From a bacterium (GTDB lineage Bacteria; Patescibacteriota; Minisyncoccia; Phycocordibacterales; UBA12088), in contig QKEV01000013.1 of NCBI GenBank assembly GCA_003252295.1, positions 25,920 to 89,919 of the forward strand: a stretch of DNA of 64,000 nt, given 5' to 3'. Shown piece by piece: positions 1 to 60,050 of the stretch. The notes under the pieces are model-generated. The model ran no database searches. It was given only the letters and a program-made list of their open reading frames with translations, and was not told the DNA's origin. Both the position numbers and the translations under genes were made by a program. Every line of letters starts with the position of its first letter. Positions within the stretch are counted from its first letter, which is position 1.

Positions 1-1912
1 GCTCCTCAAGTTCATAGAGTGCCTCACCAATGCGATGTTTCATTTCTACAAGTGTCTCACCTGTACCACACCCCTTCATGAACCTATCTTTTGGTGTTGG
101 GCAAACCTTCTTGAGCTCACCTACTCCTTTTCCATTCAGATCATCGAGCTGCCACTCCTCAAAACGCTCTTCCGTAATGATGTCTTTCTGTTCAATACCA
201 AGCTCAGTAGCAATAATCTCGGCTGACTCTCTCGTTCGTATGAGCGGACTCGTGATGATCTTTGTAATACCTTTACCTTTGAGATCCTTTGCGGCAGCAA
301 GCACCTGTTCTTTCCCTTTCTCTGTTACATGGTGCTCATTCTCCGGGAGCGAGCTTATAATGTGTTGTACATTACTCTCCGCCTCTCCATGACGCATGAA
401 GTAGTATGTGTTACCTGACTTCGCCGTATGTTCACGAAGTTCATCAACACTACCAAATACGGTCACCTCGTCAGTTTTCTCGTTCTTCCAAATAGGGAGC
501 GGGCTTGCCCAGAAACGGTTACGTGAGATGGTCCAGTCAGGTGCAGACTCAACAATGTGTTTGAACCGTCCATGCTTGAGGTGCTCTGGGTACCAGGTCA
601 CCTCTTCATTTGCATCCAAGAGCTTCTGCTTTACATCTTGTATGTTGATGAACCAACTTGAGAGTGCATTGTAGATGAGTGCTGTACCACAACGGTAGCA
701 GTGCGGGTACGAGTGTGTGTTGTTGTGCTTTGTAAAGAGCAATCCTCGCTCTTCAAGATCACCCATAACCACCTTACCTCCCTTCTTGTGGTACATGCCA
801 CGTACGATTTCTGGTGCATCATCGTTGTAAGTACCTGTCGCATCGAGTATCGGAATGATTGGCAGCTCGTGCTCCAATCCAAAGTTGTAGTCGTCCTCTC
901 CGTACATTGGTGCGGTATGTACAACACCGGTACCATCTTCAGTTGTGACAAAGTCTGCAGCCTGCACGGTCCACGCTTTCTTACTCTTTGCTTCCACAGC
1001 TTTCTCCACCTGGTAGAGTGGTTCGTATGCGGTGCCAACCAGATCTTTTCCTTTTACTTCTTTTACAATTTCATACTCTACATCCTTGAACACGTTCTCG
1101 AGCAACTCCTTTGCCAGAATAAAACGCACGAGCGGACCTGTGCCCTCGTCTTTCTTCTCAATAATTACGTAGTCAATATCTTCCCCTACCGCAAGTGCCA
1201 CGTTACCCGGCAAGGTCCATGGTGTCGTCGTCCATGCAAGAATAGAGGTATTTTCTGGGAACTCAGAACTCAGAACTCGAAACTCTACAAACACCGCCTC
1301 CTCCGTCACATCCTTGTAGCTGTTATCCATCGCAATCTCCGCTTTTGAGAGCGGGGTCTCACAACGAGGACAGTACATCAACACCTTCTTCCCCTCATAG
1401 AGACGTTTGTCAGAATGGATCTTTTTGAGCGCCCACCATACACTTTCAATGTAGGTGTTATCCATCGTCTTGTAGGAGTTATCAAAGTCCACCCAACGAC
1501 CAATACGCTCTACGTACGACTTCCAGTCGTCCACATACTTCAAGACCGTACTCTTCGCCTCCTCATTGAACTTGTCGATGCCGAGCTCTTCAATATCCTT
1601 CTTGGTCTTGAGTTCCAATTTTTTCTCTATCATATTCTCAATAGGAAGTCCGTGGCAGTCCCAACCCCATCGCCGTGGCACCGTGTAGCCCTGCATCGTC
1701 TTGTAGCGTCCAACCACATCCTTCACTACTGACGAGAGGAGTGAGCCAGCATGCGGCAATCCTGTTGCAAACGGAGGACCATCAAAGAATACAAACTCGC
1801 CGTTTGGGGCATCTTTATTCAAGCTTTTCTCAAATATCTTTCCGTCATTCCAAAAGGCGAGCACTTCTTCCTCGCGAGTCGCGGTTTCACTTTTTTTGTT
1901 TTGCTGAGACAT
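1..1912 (-). CDS. Isoleucyl-tRNA synthetase-like protein (type-2/eukaryote-like IleRS N-terminal Rossmann half plus CP1 editing domain) continuing into a histidine-phosphatase domain; 3' end lies beyond the window start
   Basis: Manual minus-strand translation from the ATG at 1912 is open to position 1, and no ORF is listed because it runs off the edge. Motifs in one frame: FFDGPPFATGLPHAGS (HIGH region), WTTTPWTLPGN (CP1 editing), HTAPMYGEDDY, HSYPHCYRCGTALIY, PDWTISRNRFWASPLPIW, then YYFMRHGEAESN...ITSPLIRTRESAEII (RHG histidine-phosphatase signature). Confidence 0.75.
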   Translation of the reverse strand, partial: MSQQNKKSETATREEEVLAFWNDGKIFEKSLNKDAPNGEFVFFDGPPFATGLPHAGSLLSSVVKDVVGRYKTMQGYTVPRRWGWDCHGLPIENMIEKKLELKTKKDIEELGIDKFNEEAKSTVLKYVDDWKSYVERIGRWVDFDNSYKTMDNTYIESVWWALKKIHSDKRLYEGKKVLMYCPRCETPLSKAEIAMDNSYKDVTEEAVFVEFRVLSSEFPENTSILAWTTTPWTLPGNVALAVGEDIDYVIIEKKDEGTGPLVRFILAKELLENVFKDVEYEIVKEVKGKDLVGTAYEPLYQVEKAVEAKSKKAWTVQAADFVTTEDGTGVVHTAPMYGEDDYNFGLEHELPIIPILDATGTYNDDAPEIVRGMYHKKGGKVVMGDLEERGLLFTKHNNTHSYPHCYRCGTALIYNALSSWFINIQDVKQKLLDANEEVTWYPEHLKHGRFKHIVESAPDWTISRNRFWASPLPIWKNEKTDEVTVFGSVDELREHTAKSGNTYYFMRHGEAESNVQHIISSLPENEHHVTEKGKEQVLAAAKDLKGKGITKIITSPLIRTRESAEIIATELGIEQKDIITEERFEEWQLDDLNGKGVGELKKVCPTPKDRFMKGCGTGETLVEMKHRIGEALYELEE

Positions 1913-1955
1913 AAGCTTCTATTCTACTACTGATAAAATAAATACACAGGATCTG

Positions 1956-3668
1956 TTACATTCGTTCTGGGGCTTTAATACCAAGGAGCCACAAACCATT
2001 CTCCATAGTGTTTGCAAACGCAGCTGCAAGTGCAAGTTTGTACGGAGCGGTCACTGATTCATCAAGTATTTTTTCCGCTGCATAGTATGAGTTCCACTCA
2101 GCTGCGAGCTGTGTCAGGTACGTAGTGATGTAGTGCGGTTCATGTTCTTTTTGTGCTCGCTCTACCACCTCTGGGAAACGGTACAGCAGTTTTTCAAGCA
2201 CTGTTGTCTCCTGTGGAGCAAGCTCGGTACTTGGCACCACACCTACAGCATTCGCCTTCTCCAGAACTGATGATGCACGGGTATGCGAGTACTCAAGGTA
2301 CGGACCAGAATCACCTTCAAAGGAGAGTGCTTCATCTGGATTGAAGGCAACATTCTTCCCTGCTCGACGTTTAAGTACTGAATACTTTATTGCAGCAACC
2401 GCAACAGCTCTTGCGATACTCTCTTTCTCTTCCTCTGGTAAATCACGATCTTGTACCTTCTCTGTAGCAAGCGCAAGCATGTCACGCAAGAGTGACTCAC
2501 CAGTAATGACATTTCCCTTTCGTGAAGACATCTTCTCTCCAGTAAGACTCATCATGCCGTGACTTACGTGTACAAGCTTCTTTGCCAATTCAGGCATCAA
2601 GAGAGAGAGTGCTTTGTAAACAACCTTGAAGTACTCATCTTGCTCTACTGCTGTTGTGGTCACGGAAACATCAAAATCCCACTTCTGCATTTTGTTGTAT
2701 GCAAGACCGAGCTCTTTCGCCTCGTACGTAGTAAGTCCTGCTTGGTTTATAAAAACACGAGTATGAAGTCCATATGGCTCACCCTTAAATACCACAGCAC
2801 CTTCACTCTCTTCGAAAATACCTTTCGTGAGACCTTCCTTTACAAGTGTCTTTCCTGGCTCAAAACATTCACTCTCAAAAAAGTAGTGATCAAACTTCGT
2901 ATCGAGCATAGCATACAGCTCCTCAAAATGTTCAAGGGTCACACGTCGACCTGTTTCATAGTCCTCTTTGATCTCATCAGCGTGTTCATAGACCATTTTG
3001 TTGTACGCAACAATCTCCTCTTTCGCAGTCTCCTCATCTTCGTAGGCACTGTTTCCTGTAACGTATGCCTTGGCTATATCCTCCACATTACTTGGATCGC
3101 CCCCTATTTTCTGCAAACCCCAAAGTGCTTTAGCAACATGAAGACCAACATCACCCTGGTAGTTTGCTCGACGCACCTCTGCTCCAGTAAAATCGTACAA
3201 ACGTGAGATAGACTCCCCAATGGTGTTGCTCATGAGGTGCCCTATATGGAATGGTTTGAATGGATTTGGTTGCGTGTGCTCTACGAGCACCTTCTTACCT
3301 TTGAGTGAATTGTTTGCTCCCCAACGCTCGCCAACCTCCAACATCTCTTTGATACTCTTTGGGAAAAATGTACGAGCAAGATAGAAATTAATGAACCCTG
3401 GACCAGCCACCTCAATTCGCTCTATATCTTCATGATTCCCAAACGCAGCAACAATTTCTTCAGCAACCTCACGTGGATTTCTTCCCTCTCGTTTTCCCAG
3501 TATCAGTGCAATGTTTGTAGCAAAATCACCATGTTCAAGCTCAGTTGGATGCTCAAGAGTAATTTCGTCGATTGAAAAACCCTGTTTCGCAAGGGCTTCA
3601 CGTACTAACTTCTGTATAGTTTCAGTAACCATAGTAAGCACTATATAGAAAAGAGAACTATAACTCAA
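1956..3668 (-). CDS. argS: Arginyl-tRNA synthetase
   Basis: 570 aa; class I HIGH motif in PFHIGHLMSN; C-terminal DALR anticodon-binding region; overall ArgRS architecture. Confidence 0.92.
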   Translation of the reverse strand: MSYSSLFYIVLTMVTETIQKLVREALAKQGFSIDEITLEHPTELEHGDFATNIALILGKREGRNPREVAEEIVAAFGNHEDIERIEVAGPGFINFYLARTFFPKSIKEMLEVGERWGANNSLKGKKVLVEHTQPNPFKPFHIGHLMSNTIGESISRLYDFTGAEVRRANYQGDVGLHVAKALWGLQKIGGDPSNVEDIAKAYVTGNSAYEDEETAKEEIVAYNKMVYEHADEIKEDYETGRRVTLEHFEELYAMLDTKFDHYFFESECFEPGKTLVKEGLTKGIFEESEGAVVFKGEPYGLHTRVFINQAGLTTYEAKELGLAYNKMQKWDFDVSVTTTAVEQDEYFKVVYKALSLLMPELAKKLVHVSHGMMSLTGEKMSSRKGNVITGESLLRDMLALATEKVQDRDLPEEEKESIARAVAVAAIKYSVLKRRAGKNVAFNPDEALSFEGDSGPYLEYSHTRASSVLEKANAVGVVPSTELAPQETTVLEKLLYRFPEVVERAQKEHEPHYITTYLTQLAAEWNSYYAAEKILDESVTAPYKLALAAAFANTMENGLWLLGIKAPERM

Positions 3669-4754
3669 CTACCGTGTCCCATCAGTGAGCTCCACGCTCT
3701 CATGTACATCAAGTACATTGAAGCGCACCATACCGATCACTTGTTGACTTTCTGTCTCAACCACACATCGCCACTCTCCCTCATCAAGATTTTGCTTGAG
3801 TGAATATGCTCTATACCCCCCTAAACGTCCCCCATCAGTAGTAAATTCAATGCGTCCTCCAGCGGCACGGACCCATTGTCCATTTGTCGCCTTACGTTGC
3901 CATGAGTGATAGAGTGGTTCATTGAAACGGGTCGGTAAAAATACACTTGTGAAGCAGTAGGCAGCTTCACCTGGACCTTTATGAAATACCTTACTGGTAT
4001 CACGCCAACTCTCGTACCATGCTGGTTTTTCGTAGGTAACCACATACGAACCACCTTCTCTGCTTACACTATGATAGATACCGATCTCCTTGAGGGAGAG
4101 TGGAACAGGAGGAATGATGTTGGTAAAGTAGAGTGCATTGAAACTAAGGTAAATACCACCAACAATAAAGAGTATTCGCACACCTCCTTGTTTAAAGAGT
4201 TTTGGAAAGAACTTATTGATGTAGTAAAGAACAAAACCAATTATGACGAGTGAAAGTATGCCAGCATAGAGGAACGTTGCTGTACTAATACTTCGCGTAA
4301 TAATTGGAGTAACAAGCACCATGTACGAAAGAAGAGCAAAGTAGAACAAGCTCATTTGAAATATGAGACGTTCGTAACGTCTTTTGAAAAATTCATTCCC
4401 AACAAACAACATCACGAGAACAAGGAGAAACGGCCAACTCACAAACACCGATGAACTTTTCGTGTACAAAATGAGAAACCCTGAAAAGAGTCCTCCTAAG
4501 GGAAACTGAATAATGATGGGTAGCCACACACGAAATTTTAAAAGCCACTTGGGAGCAAACACTCTCGTCTCAACAGCATGTACCAGAAAAATACCTGCAA
4601 GTGCAATGAGGAGGTACACAATGAACACCACATTTTCATACACAAGATCTATACGTCTCAAAGTAAGCGTGTCCCACAGAAAACCCGTAGCAAATGCTAC
4701 TAGAGAGAGATGTTCACGTACCCACCAGTATGTGTTTTTTATAAACGGTGTCAT
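3669..4754 (-). CDS. Polytopic membrane protein with C-terminal soluble domain, function unknown
   Basis: 361 aa; about 8 hydrophobic helices in the N-terminal two thirds; stop/start abuts argS, suggesting an operon. Confidence 0.5.
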   Translation of the reverse strand: MTPFIKNTYWWVREHLSLVAFATGFLWDTLTLRRIDLVYENVVFIVYLLIALAGIFLVHAVETRVFAPKWLLKFRVWLPIIIQFPLGGLFSGFLILYTKSSSVFVSWPFLLVLVMLFVGNEFFKRRYERLIFQMSLFYFALLSYMVLVTPIITRSISTATFLYAGILSLVIIGFVLYYINKFFPKLFKQGGVRILFIVGGIYLSFNALYFTNIIPPVPLSLKEIGIYHSVSREGGSYVVTYEKPAWYESWRDTSKVFHKGPGEAAYCFTSVFLPTRFNEPLYHSWQRKATNGQWVRAAGGRIEFTTDGGRLGGYRAYSLKQNLDEGEWRCVVETESQQVIGMVRFNVLDVHESVELTDGTR

Positions 4755-4823
4755 ATAGTATCTCTATCATACCAGAGTAGCTTGTACGAGGAGATGATCG
4801 ATTACTGCGTGTAATCTAGTACT

Positions 4824-6158
4824 CTACTGAGATCCTTGATGTTTCTTGTTTTCTTCAGCTTGTGTAGTGTTGTTTTCCTCACGCTGTGCACCATCATCAC
4901 TTACATCTTCTTGCTCCTTCTTTTCTTCAAGCTGCAAACCGCCGCCATGTACACTCATCACTAGTAAGCCAATGAGAACAAGTGCTGCGATACCCATACC
5001 AAACCATGGTATCCAAGGTGCACGCTCTGTAAGTCTGCTCTCCTCGAAATCACATTCATCTCCAATACCATCCCCATCCGTGTCGCGCTGAGCACTGTTC
5101 GGAGTATTTGGACAGTTATCATCAAGTGTCATGACACCATCATGGTCAAAATCATCACAAGCATCCCCTTGTCCATTGCCATTCACATCAATTTGGTCAG
5201 CGTTTGCCACCTTTGGACAGTTGTCAGTTTCATCAGGGACACCATCGCCGTCGCTGTCACTACTTATGTAAGCAGGGTTTGGATTTACACTACTGTTTCC
5301 ACCCACAAGTAACTTGAGAACATCTTTATCACTGGAGAGCTGTACAGACTCCTGAGCTACACTTCCATACGACCTGTCTGGGTCAATGTAAATCGTGTAT
5401 GTCTCTCCTGGTTGCGCTAGAAAACGTAGTGCATGTGTTGTAACCGTACTTGGTATCTGCATGAGTTCTATTTCAGACAATCGTAGTGGTTGTGAGAGTC
5501 CAAAATCTATAATAAACATTCCTGCACTTGTTTCAGGAAAAGCCATAATCGTTCCCGTCACTGTAGTTTCTGCAAGAACCACCTGCTGTCCGCCATTTGG
5601 CATTACAGCCTTTACCGATACTGTTTTTGGTAAGGTCACATTCGACGCAAGAGTAAAACGTATCCCTCTAGCAGTCACTGTTTCAAAAGGTGCACCAACA
5701 GGGCTAGTACTGAGTGTAACCTGAGCCCTGTTTATCGCATTTTCATCAAATGGAAAATCAACAAACGTATTTATATTATCGTCACGCAATGAGGTAAGAG
5801 AAATATTATCAGTATCCTCAGTGAACGGATACACTTCTACTTCTTGTAGTTCCGTATAGGTTTTATTGTATGCTTTTTGGGACTCACCACTATTGCTTAC
5901 CACAACCGCTGTTTTCTGCTTAAACATGTCTCCGTATATCGGCAACTCAACAACAGTAGGAACATCAACACGGAACGCTGGAACCTGAATGGTGTACCTA
6001 AAAGCACCTAGGTCTATGCTTGCCTGCTCTTGCCACTCAGGTGTTATTTTTTGTGAGGTAACCACAGGAACTGCTTCCTGCGCAAACACATTTGATGCAA
6101 ATATACCTGCACAAAGAAGGAGGAGGACGATAAACGCCCGAAGACTATTCTTATTCAT
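4824..6158 (-). CDS. Secreted or anchored protein with thrombospondin type-3 (TSP3) calcium-binding repeats
   Basis: Likely start is MNKNS at 6158 (ATGA overlap with the upstream gene), followed by a signal peptide. Tandem DxDxDGxxDxxDNCP...DxDGDGxGDxCD repeats near the C-terminus. C-terminal TM helix and charged tail. Confidence 0.6.
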   Translation of the reverse strand: MNKNSLRAFIVLLLLCAGIFASNVFAQEAVPVVTSQKITPEWQEQASIDLGAFRYTIQVPAFRVDVPTVVELPIYGDMFKQKTAVVVSNSGESQKAYNKTYTELQEVEVYPFTEDTDNISLTSLRDDNINTFVDFPFDENAINRAQVTLSTSPVGAPFETVTARGIRFTLASNVTLPKTVSVKAVMPNGGQQVVLAETTVTGTIMAFPETSAGMFIIDFGLSQPLRLSEIELMQIPSTVTTHALRFLAQPGETYTIYIDPDRSYGSVAQESVQLSSDKDVLKLLVGGNSSVNPNPAYISSDSDGDGVPDETDNCPKVANADQIDVNGNGQGDACDDFDHDGVMTLDDNCPNTPNSAQRDTDGDGIGDECDFEESRLTERAPWIPWFGMGIAALVLIGLLVMSVHGGGLQLEEKKEQEDVSDDGAQREENNTTQAEENKKHQGSQ

Positions 6159-8097
6159 GGTCACTATGTTTATTAGTACTTGTAAGATGCTTACTGTTGC
6201 TCTTTTCAAACCAAGCTACAGTCACGATGATTGCTCCAATAATGCAGAAAGTAATAACTCTGAAAAAGAGACCCATATTCCAGACATCAATGAACAGTAA
6301 CCTACCAACAATAATAATAAAGTATGCAATAGCAACATTTCGTTTCCATACTGAATTCTCTGCCTTGCTCCGTATGTAGAAGTACGAAGCAACCATGGTG
6401 TAAATGAAGAGAGCTACCATAGCAGCACCGTCATAATCGTAGTACGTGTACGTACGGTAGTTGGAAAGTTGCTCAACACTGAACAGTCCCACACTTACAT
6501 ACCAAACCGTTATTGTTGCATACACCATACCAAGTACAACAGCAATGTTTCTGATATGAGCAAGTGTACTGTCTGCTAACCTTTTGTGTTCCCTATGGAA
6601 GACATTGGCTAGGTAAAAAGTTATCGCAACAATCAAGTACAGTACAAATGCATCACTCGAGAAGATACCCTCTTGTGCCCATAAGTGATTACTCATGCTA
6701 CCAAGTGACATAACCAATGGGACAATAGACGGCAATGCCAAGACCCACAACGCTTTTACAGAACGAGTTATGAAGTACCCCGTAAGAATGAGTGCTGCTG
6801 ATTCTAGTATGTACGCTATGGTGAGCGTCTCACCATCAAGCTCAAGTGCTGTTGCAGTGCCCAAGAACATCACACCAACACCTAAGTATGTAAAGAAGTA
6901 CGGTAACTTCGCGCCAAGTCTGACTGCAGTAAATGCACCAAAAGCAAAAACGATGGTCCAGAAAACAAGTATAAGACTCTGCCATTCCTCCCCTGCTCCA
7001 AACAGTATCCAGAGCAGTAGGTATACACCCGTGAGTGCCGCAGTGAGCAGGTCCACCAAAGACACCTTTGTGATCTTTCGCATACCCCAAACCGAAACTG
7101 CAAAGAAGAGTGCTGAAAAGATGAAAGCAAACATGAGACCCGTATCAGCATACTGCGTTGCAAGTGCTATTTTGTTTTGATAGTACTCATAGTTTGCACT
7201 ATTAGCGTAACCACCATATACGTGACTCTTATACATAACCTCTTCTAAGAACGGCAGACTGTAGAGGAAAACTGTTGTGAGTGAGGTGAGTATGAGACCT
7301 CTCCACCCCTTGAGTCCTGCCACCCAAATAGCTCCCAGTGAAAGCACAAGTAGGTACGTCATCAAACCAGCAAAGCTTGGTGTTGAAGTTGTGACCAACA
7401 TTGGGGCCACTGCTGCTATCGCAACATTTCCATATGCAAGTGGTTTGTAAGAGAACAAAACACTCATGAAACCAAGTACACATGAGGTGAGGAACATGAG
7501 CATGAGTGCACTCATCTGTGTAAAGAGTCCATAATTAGGAGTTTGTCCAACCCATACCGTGAAGACCACAATGAGTGCTCCAACAAACATAAGGATGCTT
7601 CCTTGAGAGATAAACCTTCCCATACGATATCGTCCAAGCGCGAGTACCCCTGCACCAAACAAGAGTCCGACAGCTATTCTCCCCATAGGACCTATCCACT
7701 CCTCTGCAAACGCATAGTTCACGAACCACGCTAGACCAAGAATGAGGAAAAAACCTCCCAGCTTCATGAGCCAATCGGTCTTGAGCCATACACCGAAGCG
7801 CTCAAGTGCACTCGGCTCAGAAGGTGCTGTAGGAAACACCTGATCCTCTATCTTCGCCACCTCTTGTCTCACCATCTGTTCGGATACAGCAGGGCGCTCC
7901 TTACGCATCTGCTGCTTAGGTGCAGTGAGGTGTGCAGTCTTCTCTTTGAGGTACTGCTCCATGTGCTGCATTTGTTTTTTGAGTTGTGCAGTACGTTTGA
8001 AAAGTACAATAGAGAGCACGAACGACAGCATGCCAAGAACACCACCCGCTATCACGAGTAGTATCAAGAACTCAAGGTCATCAATAAAATAGAACAT
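6151..8097 (-). CDS. Large polytopic membrane protein (DUF2339-like architecture)
   Basis: 648 aa; N-terminal TM, then a coiled/charged segment, then about 15 TM helices. Confidence 0.45.
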   Translation of the reverse strand: MFYFIDDLEFLILLVIAGGVLGMLSFVLSIVLFKRTAQLKKQMQHMEQYLKEKTAHLTAPKQQMRKERPAVSEQMVRQEVAKIEDQVFPTAPSEPSALERFGVWLKTDWLMKLGGFFLILGLAWFVNYAFAEEWIGPMGRIAVGLLFGAGVLALGRYRMGRFISQGSILMFVGALIVVFTVWVGQTPNYGLFTQMSALMLMFLTSCVLGFMSVLFSYKPLAYGNVAIAAVAPMLVTTSTPSFAGLMTYLLVLSLGAIWVAGLKGWRGLILTSLTTVFLYSLPFLEEVMYKSHVYGGYANSANYEYYQNKIALATQYADTGLMFAFIFSALFFAVSVWGMRKITKVSLVDLLTAALTGVYLLLWILFGAGEEWQSLILVFWTIVFAFGAFTAVRLGAKLPYFFTYLGVGVMFLGTATALELDGETLTIAYILESAALILTGYFITRSVKALWVLALPSIVPLVMSLGSMSNHLWAQEGIFSSDAFVLYLIVAITFYLANVFHREHKRLADSTLAHIRNIAVVLGMVYATITVWYVSVGLFSVEQLSNYRTYTYYDYDGAAMVALFIYTMVASYFYIRSKAENSVWKRNVAIAYFIIIVGRLLFIDVWNMGLFFRVITFCIIGAIIVTVAWFEKSNSKHLTSTNKHSDHE

Positions 8098-55766: not shown

Positions 55767-56261
55767 ATGTTGTTGATGAATGTACAAATACATAAATATA
55801 GAAGATTGCTTGTACTTGCAGTAAATGAATTGCTTAAGAAAGGATGTATTTCCTTAGATTATATTAATGATGAAAGAGATGAAAAAGAATTTGGACATCT
55901 TCAAACAAAACTTGTAGGATTTGAATCCATTATTCTATGGAGAAATATAGGTTACGGAGAACTGAAAGTGTCTGTTTGGTGGAATTATAATCACTCAAAA
56001 CACCCTCAGGCTGAAATGGAAGGTGATATGTATGAAAAATTCGATCATGAAAGTCCACTTGCAAAAAAAACAAGTTATCAAAATTTTGTGGGGGCAGTGA
56101 TCTCAGGAACGCTTGAAAGGAAAACTGGAAAATATTTGATGGGAAAAAACAGTGACGGAATAAGTCGCATATACCTTAGAAAAGATATGGGTGATATTTT
56201 AAACAACTTAGTTTCTCCTACTGCAACAGGATACTCCCCAGAAGGTAAATTTCATTTTTAA
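55767..56261 (+). CDS. Hypothetical protein, first gene of the island
   Basis: 164 aa; AT-rich codon usage; no recognisable motif. Confidence 0.3.
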   Translation: MLLMNVQIHKYRRLLVLAVNELLKKGCISLDYINDERDEKEFGHLQTKLVGFESIILWRNIGYGELKVSVWWNYNHSKHPQAEMEGDMYEKFDHESPLAKKTSYQNFVGAVISGTLERKTGKYLMGKNSDGISRIYLRKDMGDILNNLVSPTATGYSPEGKFHF

Positions 56262-56307
56262 TTTATTTTTTAGATATAAAGACGTTGATATTAGGACTAA
56301 GTGAATC

Positions 56308-58596
56308 CTAATTTGAATTTCCTTCAACAATCTTCTTAACTTTCTCAAACACACTTCTCTCATATTCATCAAAACTATCACTGATTTCTTTAGCAAAATC
56401 CGAATTCGGGTTTTCATAGAACTCAAGGATTTTATGGGGCACCCCATAGTCTCCAACAAGACGACCCTCTTCCGTCAACGCATTATATTCCAGTCTTAAC
56501 AACAAGATATCTATACCCGACACTTCATCAAATGTTTTGTTGGTTTCTGTTGTGCGAATAAACTTGTACATCAAATTAAATACTCCGAGATATTTAACTG
56601 CTTGGTACTTCAAAGTGTTGTAGATAAAATCAGCTGTTTGTCTTATTGCCTCATCAACTTTACCACCTTTATCAATCTTAAATCGCATTGACCCAGCAAA
56701 TCCATCTCGCATGTAATAATGAAGCAAGAAAACAAATAGCGAATATTCCCTATCACCAATTCTTTGGTCTATTAAATATGACAATTTTTCATTATTTACA
56801 ATTGGTCGCACTACATTAAGCAGTATTTGTAGACCCTCAAAATCTACTCCTGAAGAAGTGTTTATATGGGCAATAAGTTTTCTTATCTGTGCTCTTTCGT
56901 CTTGAGTCAACTCCTTTATCCTGTCGTAAACTTTTATCTTGTCTTCTCGGCTAACAACCTTAAATCTGTCCATGATTTCTTCAGGGATTTCTCTTTCAAG
57001 CTGTTCTTGTACAATATTCTTCTTTCTCCCTAAATCTTCAATACTAAGATATTGCTCTTTTGAATAAAACAAATCGATTTCATCCTTGACCGAGTTAACG
57101 TCATAGTTTTTGTGTTTAATTTCCAAAGGACTGGAATCAACAGCATCCATAAATTTATTTTGTAAGACAATAACCCTACCACTATAGTGATGTTGGAACC
57201 TACCAGCTCTGCCAGCGATATTTTTTGCATCAAATCTTTTAAGATCTTTATCCCCTTTTTTTGATTGCACTACAATTAAATTTTTAGCTGATGTGTTTAC
57301 TCCTTCAGTGATGGTTGTGGTCGATATCAATATAGATAGTTTCCCTTCATTGAAAAGTGAAACTATCTCCTTCTGGATATATTTTGGAACAAGTCCATGA
57401 TGAATACCAACACCATTCTTCAATGCGTTGATTAGAACCCAGTCCTTATGAAAATTTTCTTCAAGATGCTTTATGAAAAATTCATAACCAGAAAAATCCC
57501 ATCTGTTATTATTTTCCGATTTGATAATATACTTTGCATATCGCTCTACATCACCTCTTCTTGGGCAATATAAAATTGTATTTTCATTTCTTTTCTCCAA
57601 GTCAGACAATATTTTCATCAATCTTTGAATCTTTCTGTTATTTTCAAAATTTACTATGAAACCTTCATCAACAATCAGTTGTTTTCTATTTGTCACCTCG
57701 ACATATTTTTTGCCTACAGTTTCAATATTATTGAAATTTAATACTTTAACATGATTTTCTTTTAGAAAGAGGTTGAATGAGTTCGTGTCTGATTTGGAAA
57801 ATTCAATATAAGGACCTGCCATTAAAATATCGGTATCCCCTTTAAGTGAGTAGTGTGTTGCAATTCTATATGCGACATCACGCTCGTTTTCTTTTGTCTG
57901 GTCATCTACAATATATTCATTATCTATTTTGTACACCTCATCAATAAACACAAAATCAAATGTAATGTTTTTCGTATTTCTTTCGAGAAAAGAAAGGAAT
58001 CTCTCTGGTGTATATATAAAAATATTTTTATCTCCAATATCATCCACTTCACTCAATGTGTGAATTGTGTATTCGGTTTCTAAATCAGAATACTCACTGT
58101 TTGTATTGATACGTTCAAGATTTTCTGACAACAAAGCAATCGTAGGGAAAATCAAAACTACATTTTTATACTTCATTTTCCTAATCACTTCGTAGGCAAC
58201 AAAAGTCTTTCCAAAGGAAGTGCTGGCTGACAGAAAAAACCTATTAAGCTCCCCTCGTTTAAACGTGTCAACAACAGTCTTTTGATATTTGTGTAATTTT
58301 AGTGATTCTGATCTATGAAGGACGCTCTCGTAGAATATCGCTGAAAAAGTATTCAAATTGAATACCTCAAAGTCTTCGATTTTGTTGAATTTTGATAGCA
58401 AGTCGAAATAATGAGGTATGCCAACAACGTTTGATATGAATTTCAAGAACTGAAAATCAGCTTGTGACAAAGGCTGATTTTTAATATCATCAAAATAAGA
58501 ATTGACCACGGTTATAAGCTCGTGGTCACGAATCTCATCATTTCTATATTTATTTATAGACGTTATGACATCAGCTCCTTTTTTGATTCTATCCAT
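56308..58596 (-). CDS. Superfamily-2 helicase (DExH-type), HamB-like
   Basis: 762 aa; Walker A LSASTSFGKTF, Walker B VFIDEVY, helicase-C motifs ITEGVN and AGRAGRF; overlaps the upstream DUF1837-like gene by 34 nt. Confidence 0.6.
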   Translation of the reverse strand: MDRIKKGADVITSINKYRNDEIRDHELITVVNSYFDDIKNQPLSQADFQFLKFISNVVGIPHYFDLLSKFNKIEDFEVFNLNTFSAIFYESVLHRSESLKLHKYQKTVVDTFKRGELNRFFLSASTSFGKTFVAYEVIRKMKYKNVVLIFPTIALLSENLERINTNSEYSDLETEYTIHTLSEVDDIGDKNIFIYTPERFLSFLERNTKNITFDFVFIDEVYKIDNEYIVDDQTKENERDVAYRIATHYSLKGDTDILMAGPYIEFSKSDTNSFNLFLKENHVKVLNFNNIETVGKKYVEVTNRKQLIVDEGFIVNFENNRKIQRLMKILSDLEKRNENTILYCPRRGDVERYAKYIIKSENNNRWDFSGYEFFIKHLEENFHKDWVLINALKNGVGIHHGLVPKYIQKEIVSLFNEGKLSILISTTTITEGVNTSAKNLIVVQSKKGDKDLKRFDAKNIAGRAGRFQHHYSGRVIVLQNKFMDAVDSSPLEIKHKNYDVNSVKDEIDLFYSKEQYLSIEDLGRKKNIVQEQLEREIPEEIMDRFKVVSREDKIKVYDRIKELTQDERAQIRKLIAHINTSSGVDFEGLQILLNVVRPIVNNEKLSYLIDQRIGDREYSLFVFLLHYYMRDGFAGSMRFKIDKGGKVDEAIRQTADFIYNTLKYQAVKYLGVFNLMYKFIRTTETNKTFDEVSGIDILLLRLEYNALTEEGRLVGDYGVPHKILEFYENPNSDFAKEISDSFDEYERSVFEKVKKIVEGNSN

Positions 58597-59504
58597 GATA
58601 TTACATCGCGTTTAATCCCACCCACATCATCTACTGGTAACAAAATGAAAAAAAGGGAGAAATCTATTGATAAATCAGACTTAAGTGTGTCATGCACTTG
58701 ATCAACGTACTCGGGTATCTTTTTGATACTAGCATCGTAGTCTTTCTCACCTTCATAGAGGAGAAATATTGGGTAAACAAATTTTACGTTGTATTTCTCC
58801 AGCTCTTCGGCTAAAACGATTTGAGGGTTGGACCGCCATGCATCAATGAGCTTCCCAACTACACTGTTCTTCGTGTCGATGTTAAGATTGTTTTTATTGT
58901 TATCAATAATTGCTAACAGGTTTTTACTTAGGTACTTTTTTGAAAGTACTTTTTCTAACTTCCAGCCAGATTGAAGTCCTTTAGAAGCATCTTCTGCACC
59001 AAGAACACTGTTGATTGCCGCTTTGTAATTTTTATAAAACTTTGCCTCTCCGAACCACAGTTCAACAGTGTCATTGTGTTCGACTAAATGATAGGCGTCA
59101 TATCCCTTTGGTTCGGAGTTCTCTAATGGAGAATAAAAATAGCCCCTAGCAATTATTGGTTTGGTACCGTATATCACTTGCAGAATTGAAAAAAGAAGTA
59201 TTTCGCCATAAAAACCATATTTACTTTTCTCTAAATCTTCGGCATTACTGTCGTACTTAATTTTTGTTTCCAGAGCTCGAGCGTGTAGATTTGCATAGTC
59301 GTCTGGGTCAATATCATATTCATTAAAAGAAAAATCTATTAGGGCATTATAAATTATTTCCTTCAAAGACTCCGTATCATAAGCAGAGTAACAATGATCG
59401 TGGTCGGTGCTAATCTTTGCGGCTGAAATAGACTTGCTTGAGTGTGGCAAATGATATTCCAAAACTACTGTCTTCTCTATTAAATCTTGTAGTGATTGCC
59501 TCAT
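58563..59504 (-). CDS. HamA/DUF1837-like protein with PD-(D/E)xK-type motif, partner of the helicase (Hachiman-like pair)
   Basis: 313 aa; D...ELWFGEAK (D-E-x-K) nuclease-like motif; size and position (immediately upstream, overlapping) match Hachiman hamA-hamB. Confidence 0.45.
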   Translation of the reverse strand: MRQSLQDLIEKTVVLEYHLPHSSKSISAAKISTDHDHCYSAYDTESLKEIIYNALIDFSFNEYDIDPDDYANLHARALETKIKYDSNAEDLEKSKYGFYGEILLFSILQVIYGTKPIIARGYFYSPLENSEPKGYDAYHLVEHNDTVELWFGEAKFYKNYKAAINSVLGAEDASKGLQSGWKLEKVLSKKYLSKNLLAIIDNNKNNLNIDTKNSVVGKLIDAWRSNPQIVLAEELEKYNVKFVYPIFLLYEGEKDYDASIKKIPEYVDQVHDTLKSDLSIDFSLFFILLPVDDVGGIKRDVISWIESKKELMS

Positions 59505-59534
59505 GGTTAAAATTGATAATACCCAAACATATTT

Positions 59535-60050
59535 TTACCAATTCTGCCACTCTACAGGAGTTCCGAATCGATTTATACTCAATAACTTCTTACTACGCTT
59601 TTTATCAAAAGCAATCAGGATGAAACTTTTGTTGTCATCATACTCTCCGCCTGTTTCTTGGGAAATTCTTGATAGTTTTTCAAGGTCTCCAGCAATAATT
59701 CTATCGTACTTAGTGTTGCTTTCTTTGTTATTTAATCTGCGTAATTTGATTTCGATGATACAGTAGTATTTATTGAATGAATACCCTTTCGAAGGCAACC
59801 TAACAGGATTGACATTAAGATTTCTGTGATCAAGTACAACCAAATCTGAACGGTATTTCAAGTCATTGTTCCTTCCGTACCATCTTACCTCAGCATGCAC
59901 ATTCACATTTCTGTTTCCGTTTAGTGCGGACTCAAGTTTTGTATATAGCCTACAACGAATATCATCTTCAGTGAGAAAATCATCCATGCGCCACTTACTG
60001 GAATAAAACTCTGTGACTGCTTTTAATATTGTTTTTTGAATTTTACTCAT
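59535..60050 (-). CDS. Small PD-(D/E)xK-like protein, function unknown
   Basis: 171 aa; SDLVVLD...YCIIEIKLRR resembles a restriction-endonuclease-fold core. Confidence 0.35.
   Translation of the reverse strand: MSKIQKTILKAVTEFYSSKWRMDDFLTEDDIRCRLYTKLESALNGNRNVNVHAEVRWYGRNNDLKYRSDLVVLDHRNLNVNPVRLPSKGYSFNKYYCIIEIKLRRLNNKESNTKYDRIIAGDLEKLSRISQETGGEYDDNKSFILIAFDKKRSKKLLSINRFGTPVEWQNW

What the first reader, a model, noticed from the sequence alone, without database searches (positions are those of the whole stretch)
1..1912. IleRS-family protein with degenerate HIGH (HAGS), intact CP1 editing domain, and a histidine-phosphatase domain replacing the KMSKS region
The N-terminal ~500 aa are an unmistakable type-2 IleRS (PPFATGLP, WTTTPWTLPGN, HTAPMYGEDDY, HCYRCGTALIY, PDWTISRNRFWASPLPIW). 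The first active-site signature reads HAGS instead of H(Y/I)GH, so the second His is lost. After the conserved VTVFGSVDELREH segment, where the second Rossmann half with KMSKS should follow, the protein becomes a classic phosphoglycerate-mutase/SixA-type histidine phosphatase (YYFMRHGEAESN ... ITSPLIRTRESAEII). The gene is in an operon with argS. It is either a pseudo-synthetase that kept only tRNA binding and editing, fused to a phosphatase, or an IleRS with a large phosphatase insertion whose KMSKS and anticodon domain lie beyond the window. No IleRS-phosphatase fusion is known to me.
Basis: seen in the sequence. Interest (0 to 1): 0.8.

Follow-up and report, generated by a model that had tools for sequence, protein, structure and literature searches.

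The report
IleRS with an embedded histidine phosphatase
This is the front 637 residues of an ordinary-looking essential enzyme (isoleucyl-tRNA synthetase) from a Parcubacteria-type bacterium that carries a complete, apparently active phosphatase domain inserted into a surface loop of its catalytic core. The insertion is shared by hundreds of relatives and has not been described in the papers I could search.

Summary
**Observation.** It is real. A minus-strand ORF starts at ATG 1912 and runs off window position 1 (637 codons). It contains a type-2 IleRS N-half, an intact CP1 editing domain, the signature HAGS, and then 140 residues of a His_Phos_1 domain.

**Interpretation.** The headline reading, that the phosphatase replaces the KMSKS region and makes a pseudo-synthetase, is not supported. 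Every full-length relative resumes IleRS straight after the phosphatase: ELDLHRPYID, DxWxESG, K[MIL]SKS, Anticodon_1, DUF5915. This includes the 77%-identical orthologue L001 (1171 aa). The phosphatase is a roughly 170-240-residue insertion. It sits where the zinc knuckle lies in T. thermophilus IleRS, between positions 482 and 488.

**HAGS.** It is not a sequencing error. HxGS is the norm for this lineage (Ser in 83 of 92).

**Phosphatase.** The catalytic residues (R-H, R, E, H) are nearly invariant across two deep IleRS2 clades.

**Wider pattern.** Related modules sit at the homologous site of ValRS in other candidate-phyla bacteria, sometimes in tandem arrays of 2-4.

**Best reading.** This is a working housekeeping IleRS with an embedded active phosphomonoesterase whose substrate is unknown. 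I found no paper describing it. I rate it a new variant of a known kind, of moderate to high interest.

The parts
2..1912 (-). ileS, 5' part: 637 codons of a type-2 isoleucyl-tRNA synthetase gene. The start codon is ATG 1912-1910. The gene runs off the window at position 1, and orthologues suggest about 530 more codons.
   Evidence: Translation. Pfam and NCBIfam matches. Orthologue L001 is 1171 aa.
1742..1753 (-). Class I signature motif in the variant form HAGS (residues 54-57). The His at position 4 is replaced by Ser.
   Evidence: In 92 relatives: H1 92/92, G3 92/92, position 4 is S 83, H 5, N 3, T 1.
760..1325 (-). CP1 editing domain (boundaries approximate). It holds the Thr-rich motif WTTTPWT (nt 1202-1234) and GTGVVHTAPMYGEDDY (nt 887-934).
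   Evidence: The motif residues are invariant in alignment A1. Homologue P0015 residues 200-387 match the T. thermophilus IleRS CP1 structure 1WK8.
422..487 (-). N-terminal arm of the former zinc-knuckle hairpin (KNEKTDEVTVFGSVDELREHTA), which leads into the insertion. The Cys ligands are lost in this clade.
   Evidence: The non-insert relative P0077 has CxxC...CxC here.
2..421 (-). First 140 residues (498-637) of the inserted His_Phos_1 module. It holds R507-H508-G509-E510 (nt 383-394), N514, R559 and E586. The second catalytic His lies beyond the window.
   Evidence: The domain-only AlphaFold model of a homologue has pLDDT 95.1. Its nearest structures are metabolite phosphatases.
1913..1955 (-). 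43-nt argS-ileS spacer. No terminator-like or promoter-like site was predicted on the coding strand.
1956..3668 (-). argS (arginyl-tRNA synthetase), co-directional and immediately upstream.
   Evidence: Pfam Arg_tRNA_synt_N, tRNA-synt_1d and DALR_1. The order argS, then a small ORF, then ileS is also seen in L081.

Best explanation
The ORF is the 5' part of the housekeeping type-2 isoleucyl-tRNA synthetase of a Parcubacteria/Paceibacterota-type bacterium.

**Shown.**
- The enzyme has a normal aminoacylation core and a normal CP1 editing domain.
- In place of the tip of the small zinc-knuckle hairpin (T. thermophilus IleRS 461-504) it carries a complete branch-1 histidine-phosphatase domain. 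That hairpin precedes the second half of the Rossmann fold.
- After the insertion the chain returns to IleRS: ELDLHRPYID, DxWxESG, KMSKS, the anticodon-binding domain and the type-2 C-terminus. This part lies beyond the window and is seen only in orthologues.

**Inferred.**
- The IleRS part charges tRNA-Ile and edits Val as usual. The HxGS signature is a tolerated clade-specific variant of HxGH.
- The embedded module is itself an active phosphomonoesterase. His508 would be phosphorylated, Arg507, Arg559 and the distal His would hold the phosphate, and Glu586 would protonate the leaving group.
- The protein is therefore bifunctional.

**Substrate.** It is unknown. My estimates: about 0.5 for a small phosphorylated metabolite or nucleotide, as with the nearest structures PspA, Rv2419c, CobC and PhoE; about 0.2-0.25 for a substrate tied to aminoacylation.
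For: **Architecture**
- 120 of the 120 best homologues are IleRS. The full-length ones (about 1070-1115 aa) carry PF00133, PF00300 and PF08264, with or without PF19302.
- The sequences show the resumption and K[MIL]SKS.
- L001 (77% identical) is 1171 aa. It scores 829.6 bits against the ileS equivalog cut-off of 621.4.
- 10 of 10 N-truncated representatives continue into the KMSKS half, Anticodon_1 and DUF5915.

**Insertion site**
- P0015 residues 11-480 match 1ILE residues 10-482, and residues 679-994 match 488-805.
- Relatives without the insert have 27-48 residues at this place, against about 180-270 in those with it.

**A working synthetase**
- H and G of the signature, the editing motifs, and K, K, S of KMSKS are invariant in A1.
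- The full-length AlphaFold model has pLDDT 89.6 and pTM 0.83. It matches IleRS2 structures with target-normalised TM 0.74-0.85.

**An active phosphatase**
- R 88/89, H 89/89, N 83/89, second R 89/89, E 87/89 (plus 2 D), distal H 89/89.
- In the second IleRS2 clade (body about 43% identical to the first) the RH dyad, second R, acid and distal H are likewise kept.
- dN/dS between L001 and L002 is well below 1 in the insert: dN 0.148, dS saturated.
- The domain model has pLDDT 95.1. Its nearest structures are PspA, Rv2419c, Rv3214, HFP, CobC and PhoE, with TM about 0.72-0.78.

**Recurrence**
- Related modules occupy the homologous site of ValRS in 72 of 119 relatives, with 1-3 copies. IleRS forms with 2 to at least 4 tandem copies also exist.
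Against: - The window itself ends inside the phosphatase. Its own KMSKS half, distal catalytic His and stop codon were not seen.
- The source contig was not found. The metagenome scan gave no hit, and the best representative-genome match is 77% identical.
- One close orthologue (L002) has a frameshift just after the module. Disruption in individual genomes or assemblies therefore does occur.
- I could not show that this is the only ileS in the genome. I can show only that there is none in the other 62 kb of the window, and that each of the 80 genome loci comes from a different assembly.
- No activity data exist. No NCBIfam phosphatase equivalog cut-off is reached, so the substrate class rests on fold resemblance alone.
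The orientation of the phosphatase pocket relative to the synthetic site or the tRNA path is unknown.
Confidence: 0.8

Rival explanations
1. Coupled accessory domain. The embedded phosphatase acts on something produced or bound by the synthetase. Candidates are a phosphorylated tRNA end (3'-, 2'- or 5'-phosphate), AMP or another nucleotide product, or a phosphorylated inhibitor. It would then be a second hydrolytic 'service' domain alongside CP1. This shares the architecture of the best explanation but differs on what the module is for.
For: - The same module family sits at the homologous hairpin in two different class Ia editing synthetases, IleRS and ValRS, in different candidate-phyla lineages. 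It is often amplified in tandem.
- Every top-150 library match to the window's module whose architecture I checked (17 by Pfam) is embedded in such a synthetase. The many short matches look like fragments but were not checked.
- Many lineage members have deleted most of the cap region while keeping the catalytic core, with insert lengths down to 167. That would open the pocket to larger substrates.
Against: - There is no structural or biochemical evidence that the pocket faces the tRNA or the active site.
- The nearest structures are small-molecule phosphatases.
- Some lineage members lack the insert (P0077, P0112, L005-7, L078-80), so IleRS function does not require it.
- The hairpin tip may simply be a permissive surface loop.
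Confidence: 0.22
2. Non-catalytic module. The phosphatase fold is kept as a phosphate-binding, regulatory or tRNA-binding domain (for instance a metabolite sensor tuning aminoacylation). Alternatively it is only a structural replacement for the lost zinc knuckle.
For: - In the window's clade the Cys ligands of the knuckle are lost where the module sits.
- The insert evolves faster than the body: 40% against 59% identity within the clade.
Against: - Near-invariance of the exact catalytic set, including the nucleophile His and the proton-donor Glu, across clades only about 34% identical in the module. That is what active enzymes show, not binding-only relics.
- The second IleRS clade keeps at least one Cys pair of the knuckle and still has the module. 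The module is therefore not merely a replacement.
Confidence: 0.1
3. Pseudo-synthetase. The protein ends with, or soon after, the phosphatase. It lacks KMSKS and the anticodon domain and retains only editing or tRNA binding.
For: - The window shows no KMSKS, but only because it ends.
- L002 has a frameshift after the module.
- Several database entries are 600-770 aa even though they lie on long contigs.
Against: - All full-length relatives, the closest complete orthologue L001 and 10 of 10 truncated representatives carry the C-terminal half.
- In L002 the C-terminal half follows immediately in another frame. That is a frameshift, not a different architecture.
- The signature, editing and Rossmann residues are under strong conservation.
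Confidence: 0.03
4. Artefact. An assembly chimera or a missed frameshift has joined an ileS fragment to a separate phosphatase gene.
For: None beyond the unusual architecture.
Against: - The frame is continuous in the window.
- The identical junction appears in hundreds of independent assemblies from many studies: 539 genome stretches, 80 loci from 80 different assemblies.
- Junction residues are conserved: S-G-N-x-Y before the module and P-H-N...ELDLHRPYID after it.
Confidence: 0.01

Closest known systems
Type-2 (eukaryote-like, mupirocin-resistant type) isoleucyl-tRNA synthetase, e.g. T. thermophilus IleRS (1ILE) and Priestia megaterium IleRS2 (8C8U/8C8V)
   Same: - Best sequence and fold matches.
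- Same order of Rossmann N-half, CP1 editing domain, Rossmann C-half with KMSKS, anticodon domain and type-2 C-terminal domain in orthologues.
- Editing motifs intact.
   Different: - Carries a roughly 170-240-residue histidine-phosphatase domain at the zinc-knuckle hairpin (1ILE positions 482-488).
- The signature is HxGS. The published IleRS2 variants are HXGH and G/AXHH (PMC10485003).
- The knuckle Cys ligands are lost in this clade.
Histidine phosphatase superfamily branch 1, metabolite phosphatases: PspA phosphoserine phosphatase (4IJ5/4IJ6), Rv2419c glucosyl-3-phosphoglycerate phosphatase, CobC alpha-ribazole phosphatase, PhoE (1H2E)
   Same: - Same fold: TM 0.72-0.78 for the domain model.
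- RHG nucleophile motif, two Arg, Glu donor and distal His all present.
- The window's form has the E-x-x-x-G-x-x-x-G cap segment typical of the phosphatase subgroup rather than the mutase subgroup.
   Different: - Only about 19-26% identical in the structural alignments.
- Reaches no NCBIfam equivalog cut-off, e.g. dPGM_arch 92.5 against 225, CobC 69.5 against 162.9, PspA 55 against 350.
- It is not a free-standing protein but an internal domain of a synthetase.
- Many lineage members have a shortened cap.
NCBIfam NF040702 'isoleucine--tRNA ligase, N-acetyltransferase domain-containing' (ileS_w_GNAT)
   Same: A curated precedent for an IleRS carrying an extra enzyme domain. One relative (P0207) combines the phosphatase module with a GNAT domain.
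   Different: The window fragment scores 260 and L001 scores 326 against a cut-off of 1999, so neither is a member. The extra domain here is a phosphatase.
Bifunctional RNase H / acid phosphatase (Rv2228c type, NCBIfam NF005567)
   Same: A branch-1 histidine phosphatase (CobC-like) fused to a nucleic-acid enzyme. It is the second-best NCBIfam hit of the module, at 72 bits.
   Different: Well below its cut-off of 326. That protein is an end-to-end fusion to RNase H, not an insertion inside a synthetase catalytic domain.

Membership tests
Isoleucyl-tRNA synthetase (NCBIfam TIGR00392 ileS; type 2) | Whole-protein score above the curated equivalog cut-off (621.4 bits) | tested here: inconclusive
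   The window fragment scores 551.2 bits, below the cut-off because only profile positions 3-509 of 861 are present. The 77%-identical full-length orthologue L001 scores 829.6 and passes.
Isoleucyl-tRNA synthetase (type 2) | Class I HIGH (HxGH) signature | tested here: inconclusive
   The motif is at the right place but reads HAGS. H1 and G3 are kept and H4 is Ser. Ser is conserved in 83 of 92 relatives. By general knowledge TrpRS uses TIGN, so position 4 is not absolutely required in class I enzymes. Activity was not tested.
Isoleucyl-tRNA synthetase (type 2) | KMSKS loop and second half of the Rossmann fold | not testable with these tools
   This region lies beyond window position 1, and the source contig was not recovered. 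It is present as K[MIL]SKS in full-length orthologues.
Isoleucyl-tRNA synthetase (type 2) | CP1 editing domain with the Thr-rich motif and the conserved His/Asp of the hydrolytic site | tested here: met
   WTTTPWT (residues 227-233) and GTGVVHTAPMYGEDDY (residues 327-342) are present. The corresponding columns are invariant in A1. The CP1 structure 1WK8 matches homologue residues 200-387.
Isoleucyl-tRNA synthetase (type 2) | Anticodon-binding domain plus type-2 C-terminal domain (PF08264, PF19302) | not testable with these tools
   Outside the window. Present in orthologues.
Histidine phosphatase superfamily, branch 1 (PF00300) | Pfam gathering score; RHG nucleophile motif; second Arg; acid (Glu) donor | tested here: met
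   75 bits against a cut-off of 21.7. R507-H508-G509, N514, R559 and E586 are present in the window.
Histidine phosphatase superfamily, branch 1 (PF00300) | Distal catalytic His (the 'HG' near the C-terminal end of the core) | not testable with these tools
   Lies beyond the window. It is invariant (89/89) in insert-bearing homologues and present in all 60 insert-bearing genome loci that reach it.
Cofactor-dependent phosphoglycerate mutase (dPGM; NF038349, TIGR01258) | Equivalog score | tested here: not met
   dPGM_arch scores 72-92 bits against a cut-off of 225. pgm_1 scores 18.7 against 81.7.
SixA phosphohistidine phosphatase (TIGR00249) | Equivalog score | tested here: not met
   32-33 bits against a cut-off of 74.5, and only the first 70-75 residues align. 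Structural neighbours are metabolite phosphatases, not SixA.
Mupirocin-resistance IleRS MupA/MupB (NF000257/NF000258) | Exception-model score of 1900 bits | tested here: not met
   The fragment scores 419 and 452. L001 scores 637 and 699.
Intein (considered because the domain interrupts a conserved site and ends in a conserved His-Asn) | Cys/Ser/Thr at the first intein residue and at the +1 extein residue; Hint fold | tested here: not met
   The fold is His_Phos. The residue after P-H-N is D/E/K/A, not C/S/T. The H-N pair is absent in the second IleRS clade.

The most novel reading that the evidence does not exclude
The histidine-phosphatase module is a previously unrecognised accessory catalytic domain of class Ia synthetases in candidate-phyla bacteria. 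It would be functionally coupled to tRNA charging, for example by removing a blocking phosphate from the tRNA acceptor end, clearing a nucleotide product, or destroying a phosphorylated inhibitor. It was acquired or exchanged repeatedly at the same hairpin of IleRS and ValRS and amplified in tandem. On this reading it would be a second 'service' hydrolase beside the CP1 editing domain.
Probability: 0.2. Interest if true: 0.8.

Novelty: new variant of a known kind. Interest (0 to 1): 0.58.

Why it matters
Aminoacyl-tRNA synthetases are among the best-studied enzymes. Their inserted domains, such as the CP1 editing domain, have defined how translation fidelity is understood. Here an essential synthetase carries a complete second enzyme inside its catalytic domain.

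- The module's catalytic residues are kept across hundreds of genomes and two deep IleRS2 clades.
- The same module recurs at the homologous site of ValRS.
- It also occurs in tandem arrays.

This pattern argues for selection, not accident, and I found no paper that mentions it.

If the phosphatase is coupled to charging, it would add a new kind of accessory activity to class I synthetases. If it is an independent metabolic enzyme, it is a striking case of gene economy in ultra-small genomes, and a caution for pathway reconstruction, because the enzyme is hidden inside 'ileS'.

The lineage-wide HxGS signature also extends the known range of tolerated class I signature variants in IleRS2. That range has been linked to natural antibiotic resistance (PMC10485003).

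Tried and rejected
**Recovering the source contig**
- An exact 41-mer scan of metagenome contigs found nothing.
- The genome-contig scan found relatives only up to 77% identity.
- The window's own 3' half was therefore not seen.

**Looking for other copies**
- A tblastn search for a second ileS or a stand-alone copy of the module in the rest of the window found none.
- A search for a stand-alone module next to ileS in genomes whose IleRS lacks the insert found none within about 10 kb.

**Measuring geometry**
- I hoped to measure the distance and orientation between the phosphatase pocket and the synthetic and editing sites.
- The model coordinates are not exposed to scripts, so this was not possible.

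**Literature**
- Seven of the eight searches aimed at a prior description; two IleRS papers were also read for it.
- No description of a synthetase-phosphatase insertion turned up.
- The one paper holding both 'Parcubacteria' and 'isoleucyl-tRNA synthetase' mentions them in unrelated contexts.

**Readings rejected**
- Intein: wrong fold and no splice-junction residues.
- Sequencing error in the Ser codon: it needs at least two base changes, and Ser is conserved in 83 of 92.
- A designed 'split IleRS' in L002: the C-terminal half follows in a shifted frame with the junction peptide garbled, so it is a frameshift.
- Assignment to dPGM, SixA, CobC or PspA: all fall below their curated cut-offs.

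**A link I tested**
- I asked whether HxGS is tied to the insertion. It is not.
- Insert-bearing genes occur with HxGS, HxGH, GIHH/AIHH and HIGH.
- Genes without the insert occur with HHGS and HSGT.
Full report
**1. What is in the window**

On the minus strand an ORF starts at ATG 1912-1910. An in-frame TAG lies 9 nt upstream. The ORF runs without a stop to the window edge, giving 637 codons.

Pfam places tRNA-synt_1 on residues 17-499 (E = 2.6e-85), but only profile positions 2-270 of 414. It places His_Phos_1 on residues 504-636 (E = 8.4e-21). NCBIfam's ileS equivalog matches residues 5-506 to profile positions 3-509 of 861.

The signature after PPFATGLP reads HAGS (nt 1742-1753; CAT GCT GGC TCA). 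argS lies immediately upstream on the same strand (1956-3668), with a 43-nt spacer. No terminator-like site is predicted on the coding strand.

**2. Does the phosphatase replace the KMSKS half, or is it an insertion?**

The window cannot answer this, so I used relatives.

- **Homologue search.** It returned IleRS proteins of Parcubacteria, Paceibacterota, Kaiserbacteria, Zambryskibacteria and similar groups. The complete ones are about 1070-1115 aa and carry PF00133, PF00300 and PF08264, with or without PF19302.
- **Their sequences.** Directly after the phosphatase the chain resumes with ELDLHRPYID, then DxWxESG, K[MIL]SKS, the anticodon-binding domain and the type-2 C-terminal domain.
- **Closest genomic relative.** L001 (Parcubacteria bacterium GW2011_GWA2_43_11) is 77% identical. 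It encodes a complete 1171-aa protein of this kind. It passes the ileS equivalog cut-off, 829.6 against 621.4 bits.
- **Library representatives.** I picked ten N-truncated proteins only because they match the window's phosphatase segment. All ten continue into the KMSKS half, Anticodon_1 and DUF5915.
- **Second close relative.** L002 has a frameshift inside ELDLHRPYID, and the C-terminal half follows in another frame. That is a lesion or an assembly error, not a different design.

The 'pseudo-synthetase' reading is not.

**3. Where the insertion sits**

Against T. thermophilus IleRS (1ILE), homologue P0015 aligns residues 11-480 to 10-482 and residues 679-994 to 488-805. About 200 residues thus replace a roughly five-residue loop.

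That loop is the tip of the hairpin which in T. thermophilus carries CxxC...CxC. The insert-free relative P0077 carries the same Cys pairs. In P. megaterium IleRS2 the second Rossmann half is given as starting at residue 513 (PMC10485003). The site therefore lies at the end of the connective-peptide region. I call it CP3-like by chain order, which is an inference.

Relatives without the insert have 27-48 residues at this place. Those with it have about 180-270.

The AlphaFold model of full-length P0015 is confident throughout, including the insert (pLDDT 89.6, pTM 0.83). It matches IleRS2 and yeast IleRS structures.

**4. Is the synthetase functional?**

In a 90-sequence alignment the following are invariant or nearly so:
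- H and G of the signature
- the editing motifs W-T-T-T-P-W and G-x-G-x-V-H-x-A-x-x-x-G-E-x-D
- D-x-W-x-E
- K, K, S of KMSKS

HAGS is not an error. In 92 relatives position 4 is Ser 83, His 5, Asn 3 and Thr 1. Sister lineages have HxGH.

The published survey of IleRS2 signatures describes only HXGH and G/AXHH (PMC10485003). HxGS is therefore a further natural variant. By general knowledge bacterial TrpRS uses TIGN, so position 4 is the more tolerant histidine. The catalytic competence of HxGS is inferred, not shown.

**5. Is the phosphatase functional?**

In 89 insert-bearing homologues the catalytic set is nearly invariant:

| Residue | Conservation |
|---|---|
| Arg of RHG | 88/89 |
| Nucleophile His | 89/89 |
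| Gly of RHG | 85/89 |
| Asn | 83/89 |
| Second Arg | 89/89 |
| Glu donor | 87/89 (plus 2 Asp) |
| Distal His | 89/89 |

The window has R507, H508, G509, N514, R559 and E586. Its distal His lies beyond the edge.

The module evolves faster than the body (40% against 59% identity within the clade). It is still under purifying selection. Between L001 and L002, dN is 0.148 with synonymous sites saturated.

A domain-only model is very confident (pLDDT 95.1). Its nearest solved structures are metabolite phosphomonoesterases, at TM 0.72-0.78 and about 19-26% identity:
- PspA phosphoserine phosphatase
- Rv2419c glucosyl-3-phosphoglycerate phosphatase
- Rv3214
- the riboflavin-pathway HFP
- CobC
- PhoE

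No NCBIfam equivalog cut-off is reached, so the substrate cannot be named.

**6. How widespread it is, and what that suggests**

*IleRS.* Among 80 loci from 80 different representative genomes, the insertion is present in two deep IleRS2 clades. These are the window's clade (HxGS or HxGH) and a clade only about 43% identical in the body. The second clade carries the G/AXHH 'hyper-resistance' signature or HIGH. A few insert-free genes are nested in each clade. The insertion is absent from the IleRS of Magasanikbacteria, Microgenomates, Woesebacteria and Falkowbacteria.

*Library scan.* I scanned 1.84 billion representatives with the window's 140 phosphatase residues. That gave 2506 matches at E <= 1e-3 and 191 at E <= 1e-10. 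All 17 best matches whose architecture I checked are embedded in class Ia synthetases. Many of the others are short and are probably gene fragments. They include:
- IleRS with two tandem modules, for example P0156, whose cluster occurs on contigs up to 1.06 Mb
- a fragment with at least four tandem modules (P0121)
- one IleRS that combines the module with a GNAT domain (P0207)
- a valyl-tRNA synthetase (P0154)

*ValRS.* I followed up the ValRS. Of 119 relatives, 72 carry 1-3 modules; these are mainly Gracilibacteria- and Peregrinibacteria-type. Of those copies, 77 lie between HQIPxW and DxLDTWFSS, the site homologous to the IleRS insertion. Six lie at an earlier site.

*What this suggests.* Recurrence at the same hairpin in two paralogous editing synthetases, together with tandem amplification and retained catalytic residues, argues that the association is selected. 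It does not tell us whether the coupling is mechanistic, or whether the hairpin tip is simply a permissive loop in an abundant, always-expressed protein.

**7. Best explanation and rivals**

*Most likely (about 0.8).* This is the housekeeping IleRS2 of a Parcubacteria-type bacterium with an embedded, catalytically competent histidine phosphatase, that is, a bifunctional protein.

*Substrate, within that reading.*
- About 0.5 that it is a small phosphomonoester, based on fold neighbours.
- About 0.2-0.25 that the module serves the synthetase directly (tRNA end, nucleotide product or inhibitor).
- About 0.1 that it is a non-catalytic binding or regulatory domain.

*Unlikely.* A truncated pseudo-synthetase (about 0.03) and an artefact (about 0.01).

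**8. Known or new?**

The architecture is present in public databases under generic names such as 'class I tRNA ligase family protein' and 'Isoleucine-tRNA ligase'. Seven of the eight full-text searches, plus two IleRS papers I read, looked for a prior description; none turned up. The library does not cover most subscription journals, so absence is not proof.

I rate it a new variant of a known kind: a bona fide IleRS2 carrying an undescribed internal enzyme domain and an undescribed signature variant.

It remains moderate to high because of the conservation, the recurrence in ValRS and the open question of function.

Noticed in passing
P0154 and relatives (proteins); not in the window: Valyl-tRNA synthetases of Gracilibacteria- and Peregrinibacteria-type bacteria carry the same kind of His_Phos module. 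It is present in 72 of 119 relatives, with 1-3 tandem copies. Of those copies, 77 lie between HQIPxW and DxLDTWFSS, the site homologous to the IleRS insertion. Six lie at an earlier site after PQWF.
   Followed up: partly
P0156, P0186, P0216, P0233, P0121: IleRS variants exist with two tandem phosphatase modules, and one fragment has at least four. Nearly every copy keeps the catalytic residues. The P0156 cluster occurs on contigs up to 1.06 Mb.
   Followed up: partly
P0207: One protein named as an IleRS combines three extras: an IS200/REP-associated tyrosine-transposase-like domain inside the CP1 region (residues 326-472), the phosphatase module, and a C-terminal GNAT acetyltransferase. It could be a gene-calling or assembly oddity, or a real multi-insertion.
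   Followed up: no
L002:1170-4726 (Parcubacteria bacterium GW2011_GWD2_42_14): The 77%-identical orthologue is split by a frameshift inside ELDLHRPYID, giving ORFs 1170-3377 and 3377-4726. It is either an assembly error or a recent pseudogene.
   Followed up: partly
L016-L075: A large second clade of Parcubacteria IleRS carries the non-canonical G/AXHH signature. Brkic et al. 2023 linked that signature to mupirocin hyper-resistance. The Yanofskybacteria-type members of this clade have HIGH.
   Followed up: no
window 56001-60000: G+C drops to 0.33-0.35, against about 0.44 elsewhere in the window. This may be a foreign island.
   Followed up: no
window 3669-8097 (minus strand): Upstream of argS, in the same direction, lie a DUF2914 membrane protein (3669-4754), a thrombospondin type-3 repeat protein (4824-6209) and a DUF2339 membrane protein (6151-8097).
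   Followed up: no
alignment of 92 relatives, signature region: Position 4 of the signature (S 83 / H 5 / N 3 / T 1) and the residue three positions later (S 83 / G 5 / A 3 / P 1) have identical count profiles. This suggests the two positions co-vary (HxGS-LLSS against HxGH-LLGS). I did not check it row by row.
   Followed up: no
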